Source of the DNA: Minisyncoccota bacterium
Lineage (GTDB): Bacteria; Patescibacteriota; Minisyncoccia; Phycocordibacterales; UBA9973
Assembly (NCBI GenBank): GCA_041661005.1
Contig: JBAZVG010000001.1
Coordinates: forward strand, 196,917 to 260,916
DNA: 64,000 bases
Direction of reading: 5' to 3'
The number at the start of each line of letters is the position of its first letter. Position 1 is the first letter of the stretch. The notes under the pieces are model-generated. The model did not search any database, was not told the origin of the DNA, and saw only the letters and a list, made by a program, of their open reading frames with translations. Shown here piece after piece: positions 4,803-27,959 of this stretch. The position numbers and the translations under genes were made by a program.

Positions 4803-4909
4803 CCTTTTATTTTAGCATAAATATGATACCCGGTAGTGAAACTTGGCAAAGTTTTTTAAACGTGCTTCGCGCATTGCCAAGTTCTACTACCGGGTGATAT
4901 ATTACCTAT

Positions 4910-6856: not shown

Positions 6857-8581
6857 ATGGACAATATTAGTAAAAATAGAATATGTCAAAATTGTCGAGG
6901 TGAATTTGTAATCGAATCGGAGGATTTTAATTTCTACGAAAAGATGAAAGTTCCTGCGCCGACTTTTTGTCCGGAGTGTCGACTCATCAGGAGGCTTGTG
7001 TTGAGAAATGAGCGTATTTTATACAAACGTGAGTGTAATTTATGTAAAAAAAATATTATTTCGATTTATCATCAATCTGTACCTTTTCCAGTGTATTGTC
7101 TTCAATGCTGGTACGGCGATGGCTGGGATCCAGTTTCTTTCGGGCGGGACTATGACTTCTCTAGGCCCTTTTTTGAACAATGGAAAGGATTTTCCGATTC
7201 TGCTCCACGACTTGCTTTATGGCACAGAAATGCGATCAATTCCGATTACTCGAGCTTTGTAGGAGAGTCGAAGAATGTTTATTTATCAGTCTCGGTAGTT
7301 CTTGGATCAGAAAATGTATTTTATTCAAAATTTGTGGATAAATCAACGGATATTGTTGATTGTTTGAATATTAAAGACGGACAAATTCTTTATGAAGACA
7401 TAGAGGGCGAAAAAAATTACAATTGCCAGCACCTTTTCTTATCAAAGAATTGTATTGATTCTTTTTTTCTCGTTGACTGCACAAATTGCAGTAATTGTTT
7501 ACTTTCCCATAATTTGCGTAATAAAGAATTTTACATTCGTAATGTGAAATATTCAAAAGAAGAATATTTTAAAGAATTGGAAAAAATTAATTTAAAAAGC
7601 AGAGCGTCAAGAAAAATTTCATTGGAAGAATTTGAAAAAATCAAAATAAAATCTATTTATCGTTTTGCCAATATTGTAAAATCTGTGAACTCAACAGGGA
7701 ATAATCTTTTAAATGTTAAAAATTGTAAAAATTGTTTCGAAGTTTATGATGCTGAAAATTTAAAATATTGTTATCGGGTATTGAGATCTTTTAAAGATTC
7801 CATGGATACGAGTTATGGGATGAAATCTGAATTAATTTATGAATATATAACTGGCGCTAATACTGATTATAATGTGAAATTTTCTTCCTCTGGAATAAAT
7901 TATGTGCAAAATGCCGAATATACTGATTGTTGCATTAATTGTAATAATATTTTTGGTTGCATTTCTCTGAAGAATAAAGAAAACGCGGTTTTTAATAAAA
8001 TTTACACTAAAGAAGAATTTTTTAAACTTCGTGAAAAAATTATTGACCACATGAATGAAATGCCCTATGTTGACCAAAAGGGAAGAGTTTATAAATATGG
8101 AGAATTTTTCCCAATAGAATTGTCTCCGTTTGCCTACAATGAAACTTTGGCGCAGGAGATAGCTCCGATTACAGAGAAGCAAGCAAGCGCAGAAGGTTAT
8201 CCATGGCGCAAGTCGGACCAAAAGAATTTCAAAATTACAATTCCTGCGGAAGATATTCCAGACAACATCAATGAAGTAAGTGACAAAATTTTGAATGAAG
8301 TTTTGGGTTGCGCGCATGAAGGGAAATGTGAACATCAGTGTAATGAAGCTTTTCGCATAACCAATTATGAATTAAATTTTTATAAAAAACACAGTATACC
8401 ATTGCCGATTCTTTGTCAGAATTGCCGTTATTATGAAAGATCGAAAGTTATGCCATCACTCAAATTGTGGCACAGAAAGTGTATGAAAAAAGGTTGCGAA
8501 AATGAATTTGAAACCTCATATGCTCCAAATCGGCCGGAGATTATTTATTGTGAGCGTTGTTATCAGCAAGAAGTTTATTAA
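6857..8581 (+). CDS. Large cysteine-rich protein of unknown function (574 aa), paralog of 55332-57041
   Basis: ~40 Cys. N- and C-terminal modules read CxxC ... FY.KM.VP.PT.CP.CR, with internal C.NC.NCF.C..L.NK repeats. Clearly alignable end-to-end with the second copy. Confidence 0.8.
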   Translation: MDNISKNRICQNCRGEFVIESEDFNFYEKMKVPAPTFCPECRLIRRLVLRNERILYKRECNLCKKNIISIYHQSVPFPVYCLQCWYGDGWDPVSFGRDYDFSRPFFEQWKGFSDSAPRLALWHRNAINSDYSSFVGESKNVYLSVSVVLGSENVFYSKFVDKSTDIVDCLNIKDGQILYEDIEGEKNYNCQHLFLSKNCIDSFFLVDCTNCSNCLLSHNLRNKEFYIRNVKYSKEEYFKELEKINLKSRASRKISLEEFEKIKIKSIYRFANIVKSVNSTGNNLLNVKNCKNCFEVYDAENLKYCYRVLRSFKDSMDTSYGMKSELIYEYITGANTDYNVKFSSSGINYVQNAEYTDCCINCNNIFGCISLKNKENAVFNKIYTKEEFFKLREKIIDHMNEMPYVDQKGRVYKYGEFFPIELSPFAYNETLAQEIAPITEKQASAEGYPWRKSDQKNFKITIPAEDIPDNINEVSDKILNEVLGCAHEGKCEHQCNEAFRITNYELNFYKKHSIPLPILCQNCRYYERSKVMPSLKLWHRKCMKKGCENEFETSYAPNRPEIIYCERCYQQEVY

Positions 8582-8615
8582 ATTTAAAATTTATGATACA
8601 ATAAAATCATGCAAT

Positions 8616-8732
8616 CCCGTTAGAAGCCGCGGTCGCAGTATTATATAAAAATTATGAAGTGGAAAAATATAGAAATTAATAGTTTAATCAAGCACAGTTA
8701 CGGTTTATTGACCGCGACCTGCTTCTAACGGG
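8616..8732. mobile_element. MITE-like element: 12-bp perfect terminal inverted repeats CCCGTTAGAAGC/GCTTCTAACGGG flanked by a 7-bp direct repeat ATGCAAT
   Basis: Read from the sequence. The right-hand copy of the direct repeat is the frr start codon (ATGCAAT at 8733-8739); the left-hand copy is at 8609-8615. Confidence 0.55.
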
Positions 8733-9284
8733 ATGCAATACAATTTTTCAAACTTTAAAACAGAAATTAAAAAAGTAGGGGATTTTTTAAGCAAAGAATA
8801 TAGCCAATTAAATATTGGACGAGCGTCGCCTATGGTTTTGGACGGCGTTTCCGTAGAATCATACGGATCTCGTGTCCCGTTAAAAAACACCGCTTCTGTT
8901 TCCATTGAGGATCCGAAAACTTTGCGCGTGGTGCCTTGGGACAAGGGTCAAATAAAAGATATTGAAAAGGCTATCAATGCGGCCAATCTGGGGCTGTCAG
9001 TTGCGACCGATGATGCTGGTATTCGAGTTATTTTTCCACAGTTAACGACGGATACAAGGCAATCTCTCGTGAAAGTGCTGAAAGAAAAATTGGAGGAAAC
9101 CAGAATCACTGTGCGTCGCGAGCGTGAAAGTATTTGGAAAGACGTAGAAGCCAAAGAAAAGGAAGGCAAGCTGACCGAAGATGAAAAATTTAGAGCAAAG
9201 GAAGAATTACAAAAAATTATAGATGAAGCTAACAGAAACCTAGAGGCAAGTTTCGAAAAAAAGCAGAAAGAAGTCATGGGGTAG
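8733..9284 (+). CDS. frr: Ribosome recycling factor
   Basis: 183 aa. Pattern GRASPMVLDGV.VE.YG ... WDK ... IEKAI ... LGL ... IRV.FP.LT.D.R matches RRF. Confidence 0.9.
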   Translation: MQYNFSNFKTEIKKVGDFLSKEYSQLNIGRASPMVLDGVSVESYGSRVPLKNTASVSIEDPKTLRVVPWDKGQIKDIEKAINAANLGLSVATDDAGIRVIFPQLTTDTRQSLVKVLKEKLEETRITVRRERESIWKDVEAKEKEGKLTEDEKFRAKEELQKIIDEANRNLEASFEKKQKEVMG

Positions 9285-9296
9285 AGCCGTATGAAT

Positions 9297-9370
9297 CCCG
9301 TTAGAAATTATAGGGACATGAAAAATATAAATTACAATCAAATATTACTTTTGGGTGAATTTCTAACGGG
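9297..9370. mobile_element. MITE-like element, second copy: terminal inverted repeats CCCGTTAGAAAT/ATTTCTAACGGG flanked by a 6-bp direct repeat ATGAAT
   Basis: The right-hand ATGAAT (9371-9376) is the rseP start codon; the left-hand copy is at 9291-9296. Positions 11-12 of the inverted repeat covary relative to copy 1 (GC/GC versus AT/AT). Confidence 0.55.
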
Positions 9371-10477
9371 ATGAATATAATAATTTTTATCATAATGTTG
9401 TTGGTGTTGGTTCTCGTGCACGAAGCGGGACATTTTTTTACTGCAAAGAAATTTGGTATTCGGGTTGACGAATTTGGATTTGGTTTTCCGCCGAAGATAT
9501 TTGGCAAGAAATATGGTGAGACTGAATATAGTTTGAATTTACTACCCATCGGAGGTTTTGTGAAAATTTTTGGCGAGAACCCCGATGATGAAAACACTAA
9601 CGGGCCGGATGCTAGCCGAAGTTTCGTCAATAAAGCAAAATGGAAGCAAGCGATAGTCTTGGTCGCTGGAGTCACTGCAAATTTTTTATTGGCATGGCTT
9701 TTGTTTTCTGTTGGATTTATGTCTGGAATGCCTACATCAGTGGGTAGTCAGCCGAAAGGTATTAATTTAAATAATGTTTTTTTAACCATAGTTTCTGTTG
9801 CGCCGGATTCTCCAGCTGAAAAAGCAGGACTTAAAACTGGAGATAGGATTGCTGCTGTAGAAATTTTACCTTATACAATGGATGAGCTTAACACTGATGC
9901 TTTTAAAGCATTTATAGTTGCACATCCTCAAAAAGAGTTTGGAATAGAGTATTTAAGAGGTAAAGATGAATATACTCTTCATACAACAAAAGTCACTCCA
10001 ACTGCGGGTATTAATGGTGCACAGCCAATGATAGGCATATCTATGGATATGATCGGCACGGCTAAATTGCCCTTTTTTACAGCCCTAAAAGAGGGAATGG
10101 AGTTAACCCTATTTGTCACAAAAGGCACAGTTGTAGGGCTTTATGAGCTTATTGTAGGCAGTATACAAGGCAAAAGCGACCTTTTGTCATCCGTGACAGG
10201 TCCCGTGGGGATGGTGGGCATAGTAGGTGACGCTTATCAGTTTGGCTTCGTCTATCTTCTTTCTTTTGCCGCACTTATCTCAGTTAATCTTGCAATCATA
10301 AACTTACTTCCGTTTCCGGCGCTAGATGGCGGACGGCTTTTCTTTCTACTGATTGAGAAAATAAAAGGTTCACGAATAAATCCAAAGTTTGCCAATATGG
10401 CCAACATGATTGGTTTTGGTATTTTGATTTTGCTTATGGTTGTAGTCACTTTTCATGATGTAATTAAATTGTTCTAA
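9371..10477 (+). CDS. rseP: Site-2 protease / M50 zinc metalloprotease RseP family with PDZ domain
   Basis: HEAGHF (HExxH) in TM1, a PDZ region, and NLLPFPALDGGRL. Confidence 0.85.
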   Translation: MNIIIFIIMLLVLVLVHEAGHFFTAKKFGIRVDEFGFGFPPKIFGKKYGETEYSLNLLPIGGFVKIFGENPDDENTNGPDASRSFVNKAKWKQAIVLVAGVTANFLLAWLLFSVGFMSGMPTSVGSQPKGINLNNVFLTIVSVAPDSPAEKAGLKTGDRIAAVEILPYTMDELNTDAFKAFIVAHPQKEFGIEYLRGKDEYTLHTTKVTPTAGINGAQPMIGISMDMIGTAKLPFFTALKEGMELTLFVTKGTVVGLYELIVGSIQGKSDLLSSVTGPVGMVGIVGDAYQFGFVYLLSFAALISVNLAIINLLPFPALDGGRLFFLLIEKIKGSRINPKFANMANMIGFGILILLMVVVTFHDVIKLF

Positions 10478-26837: not shown

Positions 26838-27959
26838 ATGCAAAATTTTTGGAAAAAATTAAAAAAGCCCGCCTTGCCTGACGGAAGTCGAGGCAGGCCA
26901 TTTTTCTGCCTTGCGCCGATGTCAGATGTCACTGATATCGCTTTTCGTCACATGTTGGCAAAATATGGCAAAAATAGGGAAAATAAAGATAGAGTTGTTT
27001 TTTGGACAGAGTTTGTGTCTGCTGATGGTTTGTGCAATAAATTTGCCAGACAAAAGTTGGCACACATGCTGGTCTTCTCGGAATCTGAAAGGCCAATTGT
27101 GGCGCAAATTTTTGGCGCTAATCCGGAAAATATGAAGAAAGCTTGCCAATATGTCGCAAATCTTGGCTTTGATGGGATAGATATAAATATGGGTTGCCCA
27201 GATAAATCAGTCGTGAGTCAGGGGGCTGGCGCAGGGTTGATTAAAAATCCAGAACTTGCGCGACAGATTATCAAAGCAGTTCATGCGGGTATAAAATCAG
27301 CTGGACGAGACATACCTGTGTCAGTGAAAACTAGAATTGGTTTTAATAAAGAAGAAATTGATCGCTGGATACCAGAATTATTAAAAGAAGATATTTCTGC
27401 TTTGACGATTCACTTGCGCACAGCCAAAGAGCTTTCACTCGTTCCAGCCAATTGGGAACATATCAAAAAAATAAAGAAACTTATAGAAAAAAGTGGGAAA
27501 AATATTTTGCTGATAGGCAACGGTGATGTGAAAGATTTAAAAGATGCAGAAGAAAAAGCCTCGAAATATGGCTGTGATGGGGTGATGATAGGTCGCGGAG
27601 TTTTTGGCAATCCGTGGTTTTTTGATTCCACTAGAAAAATGGAAAACGGTAGTGAATTTTATGTCCCCGAGGGTCCCGCTTTGTGTCCCTTAATGCGCCC
27701 AAAGAAGGGCGCAGGGGCAGAAAATTCACTACCGTTTTCCATTATACGAGAAAAACTTCAAGTCCTCATAGAGCATACGCAAATTTTTGATAAAGAACTT
27801 GCGATACCTAAACATAAAAATTTTGATGTAATGAAAAAACATTTCAAGGCTTATGTGAATGGTTTTGATGGCGCCAAAGAACTTCGAATAAAATTAATGG
27901 AAACTGAAAATTCGAAACAAGTTGAAAAGATAATAAATGATTTTTTGGAAACAAACTGA
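26838..27959 (+). CDS. dus: tRNA-dihydrouridine synthase
   Basis: FMN-binding TIM barrel motifs LAPMSDVTD.AFR and GFDGIDINMGCP. Carries an in-frame ~106-nt inverted-repeat insertion (27638-27743). Confidence 0.85.
   Translation: MQNFWKKLKKPALPDGSRGRPFFCLAPMSDVTDIAFRHMLAKYGKNRENKDRVVFWTEFVSADGLCNKFARQKLAHMLVFSESERPIVAQIFGANPENMKKACQYVANLGFDGIDINMGCPDKSVVSQGAGAGLIKNPELARQIIKAVHAGIKSAGRDIPVSVKTRIGFNKEEIDRWIPELLKEDISALTIHLRTAKELSLVPANWEHIKKIKKLIEKSGKNILLIGNGDVKDLKDAEEKASKYGCDGVMIGRGVFGNPWFFDSTRKMENGSEFYVPEGPALCPLMRPKKGAGAENSLPFSIIREKLQVLIEHTQIFDKELAIPKHKNFDVMKKHFKAYVNGFDGAKELRIKLMETENSKQVEKIINDFLETN
27638..27743 (+). repeat. In-frame ~106-bp palindromic element inside dus: 23-bp perfect terminal inverted repeats AATGGAAAACGGTAGTGAATTTT / AAAATTCACTACCGTTTTCCATT
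   Basis: Read from the sequence. Its GC-rich palindromic core GCGCCCAAAGAAGGGCGC is translated in frame as ..MENGSEFYVPEGPALCPLMRPKKGAGAENSLPFSI.. Confidence 0.7.

What the first reader, a model, noticed from the sequence alone, without database searches (positions are those of the whole stretch)
8609..8739. MITE-like element with 12-bp terminal inverted repeats and a 7-bp target-site duplication inserted exactly at the frr start codon
The arrangement is ATGCAAT | CCCGTTAGAAGC ...93 bp... GCTTCTAACGGG | ATGCAAT. The right-hand ATGCAAT begins frr (M-Q-Y). The left-hand copy is a perfect duplicate, as expected for a target-site duplication created by transposition. The interior is AT-rich and has its own sub-terminal inverted repeats (CGCGGTCGC / GACCGCGAC). 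The insertion separates frr from its upstream region by 117 bp, so the element must provide or allow translation initiation. Alternatively, it acts as a hairpin that sequesters the start.
Basis: seen in the sequence. Interest (0 to 1): 0.8.

Follow-up and report, generated by a model that had tools for sequence, protein, structure and literature searches.

The report
Mobile hairpin element on gene starts
The hairpin in front of frr is a recent insertion of a small non-coding mobile element; its family is widespread in uncultivated bacteria, lands on start codons far more often than site availability predicts, and rebuilds the start codon it splits.

Summary
ATGCAAT | 12-bp inverted repeat ... 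| ATGCAAT sits at the frr start.

Four relatives (Frr 87-90% identical) have a single ATGCAAT, and a frr-to-peptidase gap of 5-14 nt. Both copies are therefore insertions.

Two collection scans hit their 120-locus limits. They gave 134 further copies from genomes and 125 from metagenomes. The copies come mainly from Patescibacteria, but also from Omnitrophota, Planctomycetota, Desulfobacterota and viral contigs.

Across the family the true target duplication is 4 bp (consensus TNNA; 5 bp at frr). The element ends in Y...R, and the terminal R plus the duplicated TG rebuilds ATG or GTG.

- 34-49% of copies abut a start codon; 2-5% is expected from site availability.
- Copies are oriented relative to the gene.
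- About half carry a short ORF ending 4 nt before, or overlapping, the gene's start. This is about three times the shuffle expectation and was replicated in an independent sample.

I read it as a MITE family. Expression is probably kept by translational coupling in a genome that is rich in leaderless-type promoters and poor in Shine-Dalgarno motifs. No transposase was found.

The parts
8594..8602 (+). Extended -10-like box TGATACAAT. Its TACAAT ends 6 nt before the left-hand ATG (8609). It is probably the native frr promoter, giving a leaderless transcript.
   Evidence: The same box lies at the same distance from the frr ATG in four relatives that lack the element. 22 of 58 genes in the window have TANNNT 5-8 nt before the start, and only 3 of 58 have an SD-like motif. 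The transcription start itself is inferred, not measured.
8610..8614 (.). Left copy of the target-site duplication of element 1 (TGCAA). Together with A8609 it preserves the original start codon.
8615..8733 (+). Element 1 (119 bp): T + CCCGTTAGAAGC ... GCTTCTAACGGG + A. The terminal A (8733) is the first base of the rebuilt frr start codon.
   Evidence: Element boundaries come from the family-wide flank analysis. The element is absent from four relatives.
8628..8634 (+). 5' half of the inner stem (CGCGGTC). It pairs with 8710-8716 (GACCGCG). The 4-nt bulge ACCT at 8717-8720 marks the gene-proximal side.
   Evidence: The same inner stem, with compensating changes (CGCGATC/GATCGCG, CGCGGAC/GTCCGCG), and the [A/T]CCT bulge recur in copies from other phyla.
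8609..8623 (+). Mini-ORF from the retained original start codon: AUG CAA UCC CGU UAG (MQSR*). It stops inside the 5' arm.
8654..8728 (+). Internal 24-codon ORF (MKWKNIEINSLIKHSYGLLTATCF*). Its TAA stop (8726-8728) lies in the 3' arm, 4 nt before the frr ATG. Candidate bridging ORF.
   Evidence: Family-wide enrichment of such ORFs.
8734..8738 (.). Right copy of the duplication (TGCAA), which is bases 2-6 of frr.
8733..9284 (+). frr (ribosome recycling factor, 183 aa), intact.
9292..9295 (.). Left copy of the 4-bp duplication (TGAA) of element 2. With A9291 it keeps the original start codon of the peptidase gene, 6 nt after the frr stop.
9296..9371 (+). Element 2 (76 bp): T + CCCGTTAGAAATT ..48.. 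AATTTCTAACGGG + A. The terminal A (9371) is the first base of the rebuilt start codon of the M50 peptidase gene.
   Evidence: Relatives have a frr-to-peptidase gap of only 5-14 nt.
9291..9374 (+). 27-codon bridging ORF through element 2 (MNPVRNYRDMKNINYNQILLLGEFLTG*). Its TGA overlaps the peptidase ATG (ATGA).
9372..9375 (.). Right copy of the duplication (TGAA), which is bases 2-5 of the peptidase gene (9371-10477).

Best explanation
Both hairpins flanking frr are copies of a non-autonomous DNA transposon (a MITE). The family has termini YCCCGTTAGAA(RY)...(RY)TTCTAACGGGR, a length of about 30-160 bp, no coding capacity for a transposase, and a 4-bp target duplication of consensus T-N-N-A (5 bp at frr).

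When the target is A|TGNA at a gene's first codons, the left copy keeps the old ATG. The right copy, together with the element's own terminal purine, rebuilds ATG (T...A ends) or GTG (C...G ends). The gene therefore survives intact, directly against the 3' end of the element.

Shown here: the structure, the empty sites, the family, the excess at start codons, the fixed orientation relative to the gene, and the excess of short ORFs that end at the gene's start.

Inferred: (a) Mobilisation is by a DDE-type transposase supplied in trans. (b) The position on start codons results from a target consensus (RTNNAY) that fits ATGNAY, combined with survival only of insertions that rebuild gene signals in a very compact genome. 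An additional intrinsic preference for gene starts is possible. (c) Expression of the downstream gene is kept by translational coupling. Ribosomes start at the retained upstream ATG (a leaderless 5' AUG for frr, re-initiation after frr for the peptidase) or at an internal ATG. They read through and melt the hairpin. They terminate at the TAA in the 3' arm, 4 nt before the gene's ATG, or at a TGA overlapping it, and then re-initiate. (d) The orientation bias reflects loss of copies whose sense transcript would carry U-tracts after stems, that is, terminator-like features.

The confidence of 0.7 is for the whole statement. On their own I put MITE identity at about 0.85 and the coupling mechanism at about 0.45.
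For: Structure: 12-14-bp perfect arms and flanking repeats for both copies; 0 of 100 shuffles give such a pair.

Insertions: four relatives have a single ATGCAAT and a frr-to-peptidase gap of 5-14 nt.

Target duplication: in register 6 the four central positions match in 98-111 of 134 copies, against 78 and 59 for the outer two. This was replicated at 93-109 of 125, against 60 and 45. The bases just outside the CCCG/CGGG arms are complementary (C..G 145, T..A 106 of 266), and 166 of 266 copies have a perfect 4-bp duplication.

Start codon rebuilt by the element's own terminal base: 13 copies have ATG on the left and GTG on the right (examples L022, L049, L113).

Start-codon excess: 67 of 136 and 43 of 125 copies abut an ORF of at least 60 codons. 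Start-codon sites make up 2-5% of tolerated sites in the window; P is about 1e-51.

Orientation: sequence markers 40:6, replicated at 22:3. T-runs on the sense strand number 15 against 50 on the other strand, and 8 against 35 in the second sample.

Bridging ORFs of at least 12 codons: 34 of 66, against 12.6 +/- 2.9 in dinucleotide shuffles (maximum 20 in 300). On the opposite strand, 3 against 17 at 16 codons or more. Replicated at 20 of 43 against 7.3 +/- 2.4. Both window copies have one.

Genome context: SD-like motif in 3 of 58 genes; a -10-like box 5-8 nt before the start in 22 of 58. Many insertion sites elsewhere have TATAAT 6-8 nt before the retained ATG.

Coupling by termination-reinitiation needs overlaps or very short gaps (PMC6728339, PMC10666635: titles and abstracts as listed).
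Against: No autonomous element or transposase with these termini was found in about 1.9 Mb of flanking DNA, so the mobilising enzyme is unknown.

About half of the start-adjacent copies have no bridging ORF of 12 codons or more, so coupling cannot be the only way expression is kept.

The mini-ORF from the retained frr start codon stops after 4 codons, inside the 5' arm.

No promoter was detected inside the elements.

The 13-25-fold excess at start codons exceeds what the target consensus explains. Even if only RTGNRY sites are allowed, 26% is expected against 49% observed. How far selection accounts for the rest was not measured.

The orientation markers and the bridging-ORF statistic were first noticed in the same sample they were tested on; the second sample is the only clean test.

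The expected-share calculation uses this one window as a proxy for all genomes.

There are no expression data.
Confidence: 0.7

Rival explanations
1. The element, or its transposition machinery, actively targets translation or transcription start sites. One candidate target is the melted promoter region of leaderless genes, where the transcript starts at the start codon. Alternatively, the element has been co-opted as a regulatory or 'punctuation' module, for example a hairpin cut by RNase III or another nuclease to release an mRNA for a translation system specialised in leaderless messages.
For: There is a 13-25-fold excess at start codons. About 20 of the 67 start-adjacent insertion sites in the first sample have a TANNNT box 6-7 nt upstream of the retained ATG, so the duplication covers +2 to +5 of the predicted transcript. 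Both window insertions, which are absent from relatives with 87-90% identical Frr, are on start codons. The orientation is fixed. RNase III is among the nucleases retained in Patescibacteria (PMC12641178).
Against: Element 2 and many other copies sit at internal operon genes with no promoter. About half of all copies are elsewhere: intergenic, on stop codons, or in frame inside genes. The stem includes the first two bases of the start codon, so a cut at the base of the stem would not give a 5'-AUG. A second, unrelated-looking MITE in the same window also rebuilds the signal it split, a -10 box, which points to survivorship. No RNA data are available.
Confidence: 0.2
2. It is a REP/REPIN-like palindromic element, or another hairpin element spread by a single-strand (HUH/RAYT-type) or other non-DDE mechanism, rather than a classical cut-and-paste MITE.
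For: No transposase with matching ends was found. Very small copies exist that are little more than the two arms, 30-40 nt long. The strong strand and orientation bias is typical of single-strand transposition. The ends are conserved across phyla.
Against: There are regular 4-bp direct repeats whose sequence matches the single copy at empty sites. From my own knowledge, REP/REPIN and IS200/IS605-type elements do not duplicate their target. The duplication also has a palindromic consensus, as expected for a dimeric DDE enzyme. No conserved GTAG tetranucleotide is present in this family.
Confidence: 0.08
3. It is a conserved cis-regulatory leader of frr (an attenuator, thermometer or riboswitch-like hairpin) and not mobile DNA.
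For: The hairpin is stable and includes the first bases of the start codon.
Against: It is absent from the frr leader of four relatives. It is present in front of many unrelated genes, inside ORFs and in viral contigs. The interiors are unrelated between copies. There is no Rfam match.
Confidence: 0.02
4. It is a chance inverted repeat with a chance flanking repeat.
For: None beyond the AT-rich context.
Against: 0 of 100 shuffles give a pair, and there are hundreds of copies with the same ends elsewhere.
Confidence: 0.01

Closest known systems
Bacterial MITEs in general (e.g. Correia/CREE elements of Neisseria, RUP of Streptococcus pneumoniae, MITEAba12 of Acinetobacter; PMC3184786, PMC6382973, PMC3049150 appeared; their properties as stated here are from my own knowledge)
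   Same: Terminal inverted repeats, short target-site duplication, 30-160 bp, no transposase, many dispersed copies, presence/absence between relatives, co-transcription with neighbouring genes as a hairpin.
   Different: Described families are confined to a genus or family. This one keeps the same 10-12-bp ends across Patescibacteria, Omnitrophota, Planctomycetota, Desulfobacterota and viral contigs. A third to a half of copies lie exactly on a start codon and rebuild it with the element's own last base. The orientation relative to the gene is fixed. No parent IS is known.
Rickettsia palindromic elements (RPE) (own knowledge)
   Same: Palindromic mobile elements that can sit in frame inside conserved protein genes and be translated. 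Here they are read as PVR(S/N)...SNG or PLE...LTG inside SecA-like, RsmH-like and other ORFs (the protein names are my reading of the flanking sequence).
   Different: In-frame copies are a minority here (about 10 of 136). Most copies are at gene boundaries. The lineage and sequence are different.
Mycobacterial interspersed repetitive units (MIRU) (own knowledge: intercistronic repeats carrying small ORFs whose ends overlap the flanking genes)
   Same: An intercistronic repeat that carries a short ORF which starts at or near the upstream gene's end and stops at or overlapping the downstream start, preserving translational coupling.
   Different: MIRUs are tandem direct repeats without terminal inverted repeats or a target duplication. 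The present elements are mostly single hairpin insertions, although two loci carry two adjacent copies.
REP / REPIN elements mobilised by RAYT transposases (own knowledge)
   Same: Short hairpin-forming repeats, often in transcribed intergenic regions, with no transposase inside.
   Different: REPINs leave no target duplication and carry a conserved GTAG. Here a 4-bp duplication is the rule, and its sequence matches the single copy at the empty sites.
IS1380 family insertion sequences (own recollection of ISfinder summaries: ends 'CC', duplication 4-5 bp)
   Same: The ends start with CC(CC)G, and the duplication is 4 bp (5 bp at frr).
   Different: This is only a lead from memory. No IS1380-type transposase or matching IS end was examined.

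Membership tests
MITE (miniature inverted-repeat transposable element) | Terminal inverted repeats | tested here: met
   12-14 bp perfect arms in both window copies. Positions 11-12 co-vary between the two arms in 62-64 of 66 copies. The terminal bases are complementary in 251 of 266 copies.
MITE (miniature inverted-repeat transposable element) | Target-site duplication of fixed length flanking the element | tested here: met
   4-bp duplication, consensus TNNA. It is 5 bp at frr. The duplicated bases occur once in relatives.
MITE (miniature inverted-repeat transposable element) | Small size and no transposase gene inside | tested here: met
   65-160 bp in the scanned range, median 101, with copies of 30-40 bp seen as well. 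Only short ORFs of up to about 30 codons occur inside.
MITE (miniature inverted-repeat transposable element) | Multiple dispersed copies | tested here: met
   2 copies in the window; more than 120 loci in each of two collections, with several loci carrying 2-5 copies.
MITE (miniature inverted-repeat transposable element) | Presence/absence at orthologous sites (empty sites) | tested here: met
   Both window copies are absent from L122, L123, L125 and L127.
MITE (miniature inverted-repeat transposable element) | A cognate autonomous IS with the same ends | tested here: inconclusive
   None was found in about 1.9 Mb of flanks. Solo ends are decayed copies, and long pairs enclose housekeeping genes. 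Whole genomes could not be scanned.
REP / REPIN | No target-site duplication; conserved GTAG; association with a RAYT gene | tested here: not met
   A duplication is present and verified against empty sites. There is no GTAG in the arms. RAYT association is not testable with the DNA held.
Integron attC site | Inverse core RYYYAAC at the 5' end and core GTTRRRY at the 3' end of the imperfect palindrome (own knowledge of the definition) | tested here: not met
   The order is the reverse here: GTTAGAA lies in the 5' arm and TTCTAAC in the 3' arm on either strand. In addition, the flanks are direct repeats.
Any Rfam RNA family | Covariance-model score above the gathering threshold | tested here: not met
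   Window 8000-10000, E-value mode: only four chance-level hits to microRNA and HIV models, all far below threshold.
Rickettsia palindromic elements | In-frame insertion in protein-coding genes | tested here: met
   About 10 copies lie in long ORFs, all with lengths that are multiples of 3 and no stop. Homology to RPE consensus sequences was not tested, so this is a likeness in behaviour, not membership.
MIRU-like intercistronic repeats | Small ORF whose ends overlap or abut the flanking genes | tested here: met
   Bridging ORFs in 34 of 66 and 20 of 43 start-adjacent copies, about three times the shuffle expectation. The tandem-repeat nature of MIRUs is not met: most copies are single.
IS1380-derived MITE | Ends and duplication length matching an IS1380-family member; a related transposase in the same genomes | not tested
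   This is only a recollection that IS1380 ends are CC and its duplication is 4-5 bp.

The most novel reading that the evidence does not exclude
The family is not merely tolerated at start codons. Either its transposition machinery recognises initiation sites (for example the open promoter complex of leaderless genes, by analogy with start-site targeting by some eukaryotic retroelements), or it has become a host-used module that sets translation of the downstream gene through hairpin plus bridging-ORF coupling in bacteria that lack Shine-Dalgarno-led initiation.
Probability: 0.22. Interest if true: 0.8.

Novelty: new variant of a known kind. Interest (0 to 1): 0.6.

Why it matters
If this holds, it describes a mobile element whose end sequence and duplication length let it split a start codon, a stop codon or an overlapping ATGA junction without destroying either gene. 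That may explain how such an element can spread in the smallest and most gene-dense bacterial genomes.

It gives a natural test case for how translation starts in Patescibacteria. This window at least shows almost no Shine-Dalgarno motifs and many promoters of the leaderless type.

It also matters practically. The elements break assemblies (one public contig ends inside element 1). They add false N-terminal extensions or short insertions to predicted proteins. They mark recent genome change between closely related uncultivated lineages. Their presence with identical ends in several phyla and in viral contigs points to horizontal spread.

Tried and rejected
1. Intron-like or bypass-like interruption of genes. 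Deleting the element plus duplication never joined two halves of one protein. The long 'restored' frames were gene boundaries, e.g. gyrB|gyrA and def|fmt.

2. Promoter inside the element. The consensus scan found none at 8450-9450. -10-like hexamers are not more frequent on the gene strand than on the other strand. The spacing between the TTAGAA of the 5' arm and the A/T-rich box after the internal GGGA motif varies from 9 to 24 nt.

3. RNA-specific pairing test (G-U versus A-C mismatches next to the arms). Too few mismatches to decide: 4 versus 1.

4. All-against-all BLAST of interiors to define orientation. Almost no significant pairs; the interiors are too short and diverse.

5. Reading only from the retained left ATG. 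18 of 47 copies read through, against 7 expected, and there were no in-frame fusions in the first sample. Splitting by context gave 13 of 27 in coupled contexts against 5 of 20 in others, which I judged suggestive only; no significance test was run on this split.

6. Search for the autonomous element. Solo ends, pairs 400-5000 bp apart with matching duplication, and protein families recurring near copies all led to decayed copies or housekeeping genes. L021 has about 320-nt inverted repeats around a 686-aa predicted secreted protein (my reading of its N-terminus), not a transposase.

7. Literature by exact sequence and by topic: nothing on this family.

8. BLAST against annotated plasmids and phages: only chance AT-rich matches.

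Full report
**What is in the window.** It reads ATGCAAT (8609-8615), CCCGTTAGAAGC (8616-8627), 93 nt, GCTTCTAACGGG (8721-8732), ATGCAAT (8733-8739). The ATG at 8733 opens a 183-aa ORF that is a ribosome recycling factor (PF01765). With the flanking AT the perfect arms are 14 nt. As RNA the region folds at -44.3 kcal/mol, z = -5.05.

AATTTCTAACGGG | ATGAAT at 9291-9376. Its right-hand ATG (9371) is the start of the next gene, an M50 peptidase. Its left-hand ATG lies 6 nt after the frr stop. The paired pattern occurs twice in the window and in none of 100 dinucleotide-preserving shuffles. No Rfam family matches.

**Both copies are insertions.** The window comes from a Candidatus Paceibacterota (Nomurabacteria-like) genome; the identical Frr is on an 813-kb contig. 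I fetched the frr locus of four relatives whose Frr is 87-90% identical.

- All four have one ATGCAAT at the frr start.
- All four have the same TGATACAAT box ending 6 nt upstream of that ATG.
- All four have only 5-14 nt between the frr stop and the peptidase start.

Its own refutation criterion, a conserved leader in all relatives, is not met. One public contig of the same strain ends inside element 1, which is the typical assembly break at a repeat.

**The family.** These came from many Patescibacteria lineages (Nomura-, Sacchari-, Kerfeld-, Kaiser-, Doudna-, Moranbacteria and others). They also came from MAGs labelled Omnitrophota, Planctomycetota, Deltaproteobacteria/Desulfobacterota and others. 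The same scan of metagenome contigs also stopped at 120 loci, and 15 IMG/VR viral contigs carry copies. Some labels on non-Patescibacteria MAGs could be binning errors. However, the GC-rich copies with a distinct interior subfamily argue that the spread is real.

**The real duplication and the real ends.** Aligning the six bases on each side of 134 copies, the four central positions are identical in 98-111 copies. The outermost two are identical in only 78 and 59. In 125 independent copies the numbers are 93-109 against 60 and 45. When the second base of the right flank is C instead of T, the matching left-flank base is C too (examples), so that position belongs to the duplication and not to the repeat arm. 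The single bases directly outside CCCG/CGGG are complementary in 251 of 266 copies (C..G 145, T..A 106).

The element is therefore YCCCGTTAGAA...TTCTAACGGGR, and the duplication is 4 bp, consensus T-N-N-A. It is perfect in 166 of 266 copies, most often TGAA, TAAA, TCAA or TCCA. The frr copy is the only one in the first sample whose best repeat register is 7. That is, it has a 5-bp duplication (TGCAA) extended by the element's terminal T...A and by one coincidental base on each side. Positions 11 and 12 of the arms vary between copies but stay complementary. Many copies share an inner GC-rich stem with compensating changes and a 4-nt bulge [A/T]CCT on the gene-proximal side.

**Association with gene boundaries.** In the first sample, 67 of 136 copies directly abut the ATG or GTG of an ORF of at least 60 codons. 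In the second sample, 43 of 125 do. In 13 copies with C...G ends, the left flank keeps ATG while the rebuilt start is GTG. This shows that the first base of the new start codon is the element's own last base.

Using the window as a model genome (58 genes, 88% coding), start-codon sites are 2-5% of all sites that fit YNNR, TNNA or RTNNAY and do not interrupt a gene. They are 26% if only RTGNRY sites are allowed. The observed 49% differs from these with P about 1e-51 and 5e-9 respectively.

Of 240 copies with enough flank, 107 abut a start codon. In 38, the duplication contains the stop codon of the upstream gene. Nineteen of those are ATGA overlaps, where one insertion separates two overlapping genes and leaves both intact (contexts).

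About ten copies lie inside long ORFs. All have lengths that are multiples of three and contain no stop. They are read as PVR(S/N)...SNG or PLE...LTG inside ORFs whose flanking sequences look like SecA, RsmH, a dTDP-glucose dehydratase and exonuclease III. One division/cell-wall gene cluster (my reading of ORFs resembling MurG, FtsW and MurD; L179) carries at least three copies, including a 30-nt one in frame in a MurD-like ORF. No case of an interrupted gene that would need splicing or bypass was found.

**Orientation and short ORFs.** The arms are palindromic, but the interiors are not. Two markers were seen in gene-oriented listings: a GGGN motif in the 5' part and the [A/T]C[C/T]T bulge next to the 3' arm. 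These favour one orientation 40:6 and 22:3 in the independent sample. Runs of five or more T are rare on the gene strand (15 against 50, and 8 against 35). Copies that would place U-tracts after stems in the mRNA are therefore missing.

The 3' arm reads ..TTC TAA CGG G|ATG in one frame, ..TCT AAC GGG|ATG in the gene's frame, and ..CTA ACG GGA TGA in the third when the gene starts ATGA. Ribosomes coming through the element in the first or third frame therefore stop 4 nt before, or overlapping, the gene's start.

ATG-initiated ORFs of at least 12 codons that end in this way exist in 34 of 66 start-adjacent copies. Dinucleotide-preserving shuffles of the interiors give 12.6 +/- 2.9, with a maximum of 20 in 300. 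For the TAA frame, ORFs of at least 16 codons number 17 on the gene strand and 3 on the opposite strand. The independent sample gives 20 of 43 against 7.3 +/- 2.4.

Both window copies have such an ORF. Element 2 has 9291-9374, 27 codons from the retained ATG, with TGA overlapping the peptidase ATG. Element 1 has 8654-8728, 24 codons from an internal ATG, with TAA 4 nt before the frr ATG. The retained frr ATG opens only MQSR*.

**Genome context.** In the window only 3 of 58 predicted genes have an SD-like motif. 22 of 58 have a TANNNT box 5-8 nt upstream of the start codon. This is the arrangement expected for leaderless mRNAs, but it is inferred from sequence only. The same arrangement precedes the retained ATG at about 20 of the 67 start-adjacent insertion sites in the first sample.

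For frr the conserved TGATACAAT box predicts a transcript that begins at the retained ATG (8609). In relatives the peptidase gene follows frr by 5-14 nt. At that distance translation is expected to depend on termination-reinitiation (PMC6728339, PMC10666635: titles and abstracts as listed). An 80-nt insertion would break that dependence unless an ORF bridges it, and one does.

**Interpretation.** The structure, the duplication, the empty sites and the copy number make this a MITE family. I give that about 0.85 on its own.

The mobilising enzyme is unknown. No transposase recurs near copies, solo ends are decayed copies, and pairs 0.4-5 kb apart with the same duplication enclose housekeeping genes. 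From memory, ends beginning CC with a 4-5-bp duplication resemble the IS1380 family. This was not tested.

I consider translational coupling through the element the most likely way expression is kept, at about 0.45. It accounts for the ORF excess and for the orientation bias. But half of the copies lack such an ORF, and there are no RNA data.

The excess at start codons may come from three sources. One is a palindromic target consensus (RTNNAY) that fits ATGNAY. Another is survival of only those insertions that rebuild what they split. The third is a real preference for initiation sites. A second MITE family in the same window supports the survival argument. It lies at 4829-4894, with ends CCCGGTAGTGAAAC.. 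and duplication TGATA, and is absent from three relatives. It sits inside the extended -10 box upstream of mreB, and its duplication rebuilds that box next to the gene.

**Comparison and novelty.** The kind, a bacterial MITE, is known. Three things set this family apart from what I could find or recall.

- Identical ends across several phyla and in viral contigs.
- Insertion geometry that rebuilds start codons with the element's own terminal base, seen at a third to a half of copies.
- Orientation and bridging-ORF signatures that point to selection at the level of translation, in an organism with almost no Shine-Dalgarno motifs.

Full-text searches by exact sequence and by topic found no description of it. 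It has no match in annotated plasmids or phages.

It behaves partly like Rickettsia palindromic elements (in-frame copies) and partly like mycobacterial MIRUs (ORFs abutting the flanking genes). It fails the REP/REPIN and attC definitions. I rate it a new variant of a known kind, with interest 0.6.

Noticed in passing
window 4824-4899: A second MITE-like family. The element is at 4829-4894, with arms CCCGGTAGTGAAACTTGGCAA / TTGCCAAGTTCTACTACCGGG, flanked by TGATA/TGATA. Three relatives have a single TGATA at this site. The insertion lies inside the extended -10-like box (TGATATATT) upstream of mreB, and the duplication rebuilds the box next to the gene.
   Followed up: partly
window 27638-27743: Inverted repeat with 23-nt perfect arms (AATGGAAAACGGTAGTGAATTTT) and a GC-rich 60-nt loop. 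It lies in frame inside the ORF 26838-27959. Its core AACGGTAGTGAA resembles the ends of the second family. It is possibly an in-frame copy of a third element.
   Followed up: no
window, all predicted gene starts: Only 3 of 58 genes have an SD-like motif. 22 of 58 have a TANNNT box 5-8 nt upstream of the start codon, often as TGnTAnnnT. This suggests that leaderless mRNAs dominate in this organism.
   Followed up: partly
L035, L058, L062, L097, L114, L115 (4813) and three metagenome copies: A subset of start-adjacent copies has the conserved hexamer ACYTGT (or ACTTGC) directly left of the 5' arm, instead of a copy of the start codon, so there is no direct repeat. The origin is unknown.
   Followed up: no
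many copies, e.g. L001, L002, L007, L046, L058; window 9312-9316: An internal motif (A)ACGGGAT lies 14-33 nt from the 5' end. It repeats the element's own 3' terminus and can pair with the 5' arm. Related mini-elements of 30-40 nt exist (L032 5123-5160, L055 2207-2236, L179 9739-9768).
   Followed up: partly
L179 7180-9768: In one cluster of cell-wall and division genes (my reading of the ORFs: gltX, murG, ftsW, murD), copies sit on the murG-like start as an in-frame N-terminal extension (MNPVRNS...VSNG, then the GTG start). A copy also sits in frame inside the murD-like ORF, and another lies next to the gltX-like gene.
   Followed up: partly
L185 1075-1332; L036 7674-7895: Two copies directly adjacent to each other, 6 nt apart, in front of one gene. 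In L185 they lie upstream of a gene that looks like prfA.
   Followed up: no
L021 2046-2369 and 4832-5155: About 320-nt inverted repeats, each containing one copy of the element, flank the gene for a 686-aa protein that looks secreted. This may be an invertible or duplicated segment.
   Followed up: partly
L121 1-27 (Logan SRR18595301): A public contig of the same strain ends inside element 1. This illustrates that these repeats break short-read assemblies.
   Followed up: yes
window 8616-9370: frr is bracketed by two copies in the same orientation, so an outer left end and an outer right end enclose a 755-bp unit containing only frr. Whether such a unit could move as a composite was not examined.
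   Followed up: no
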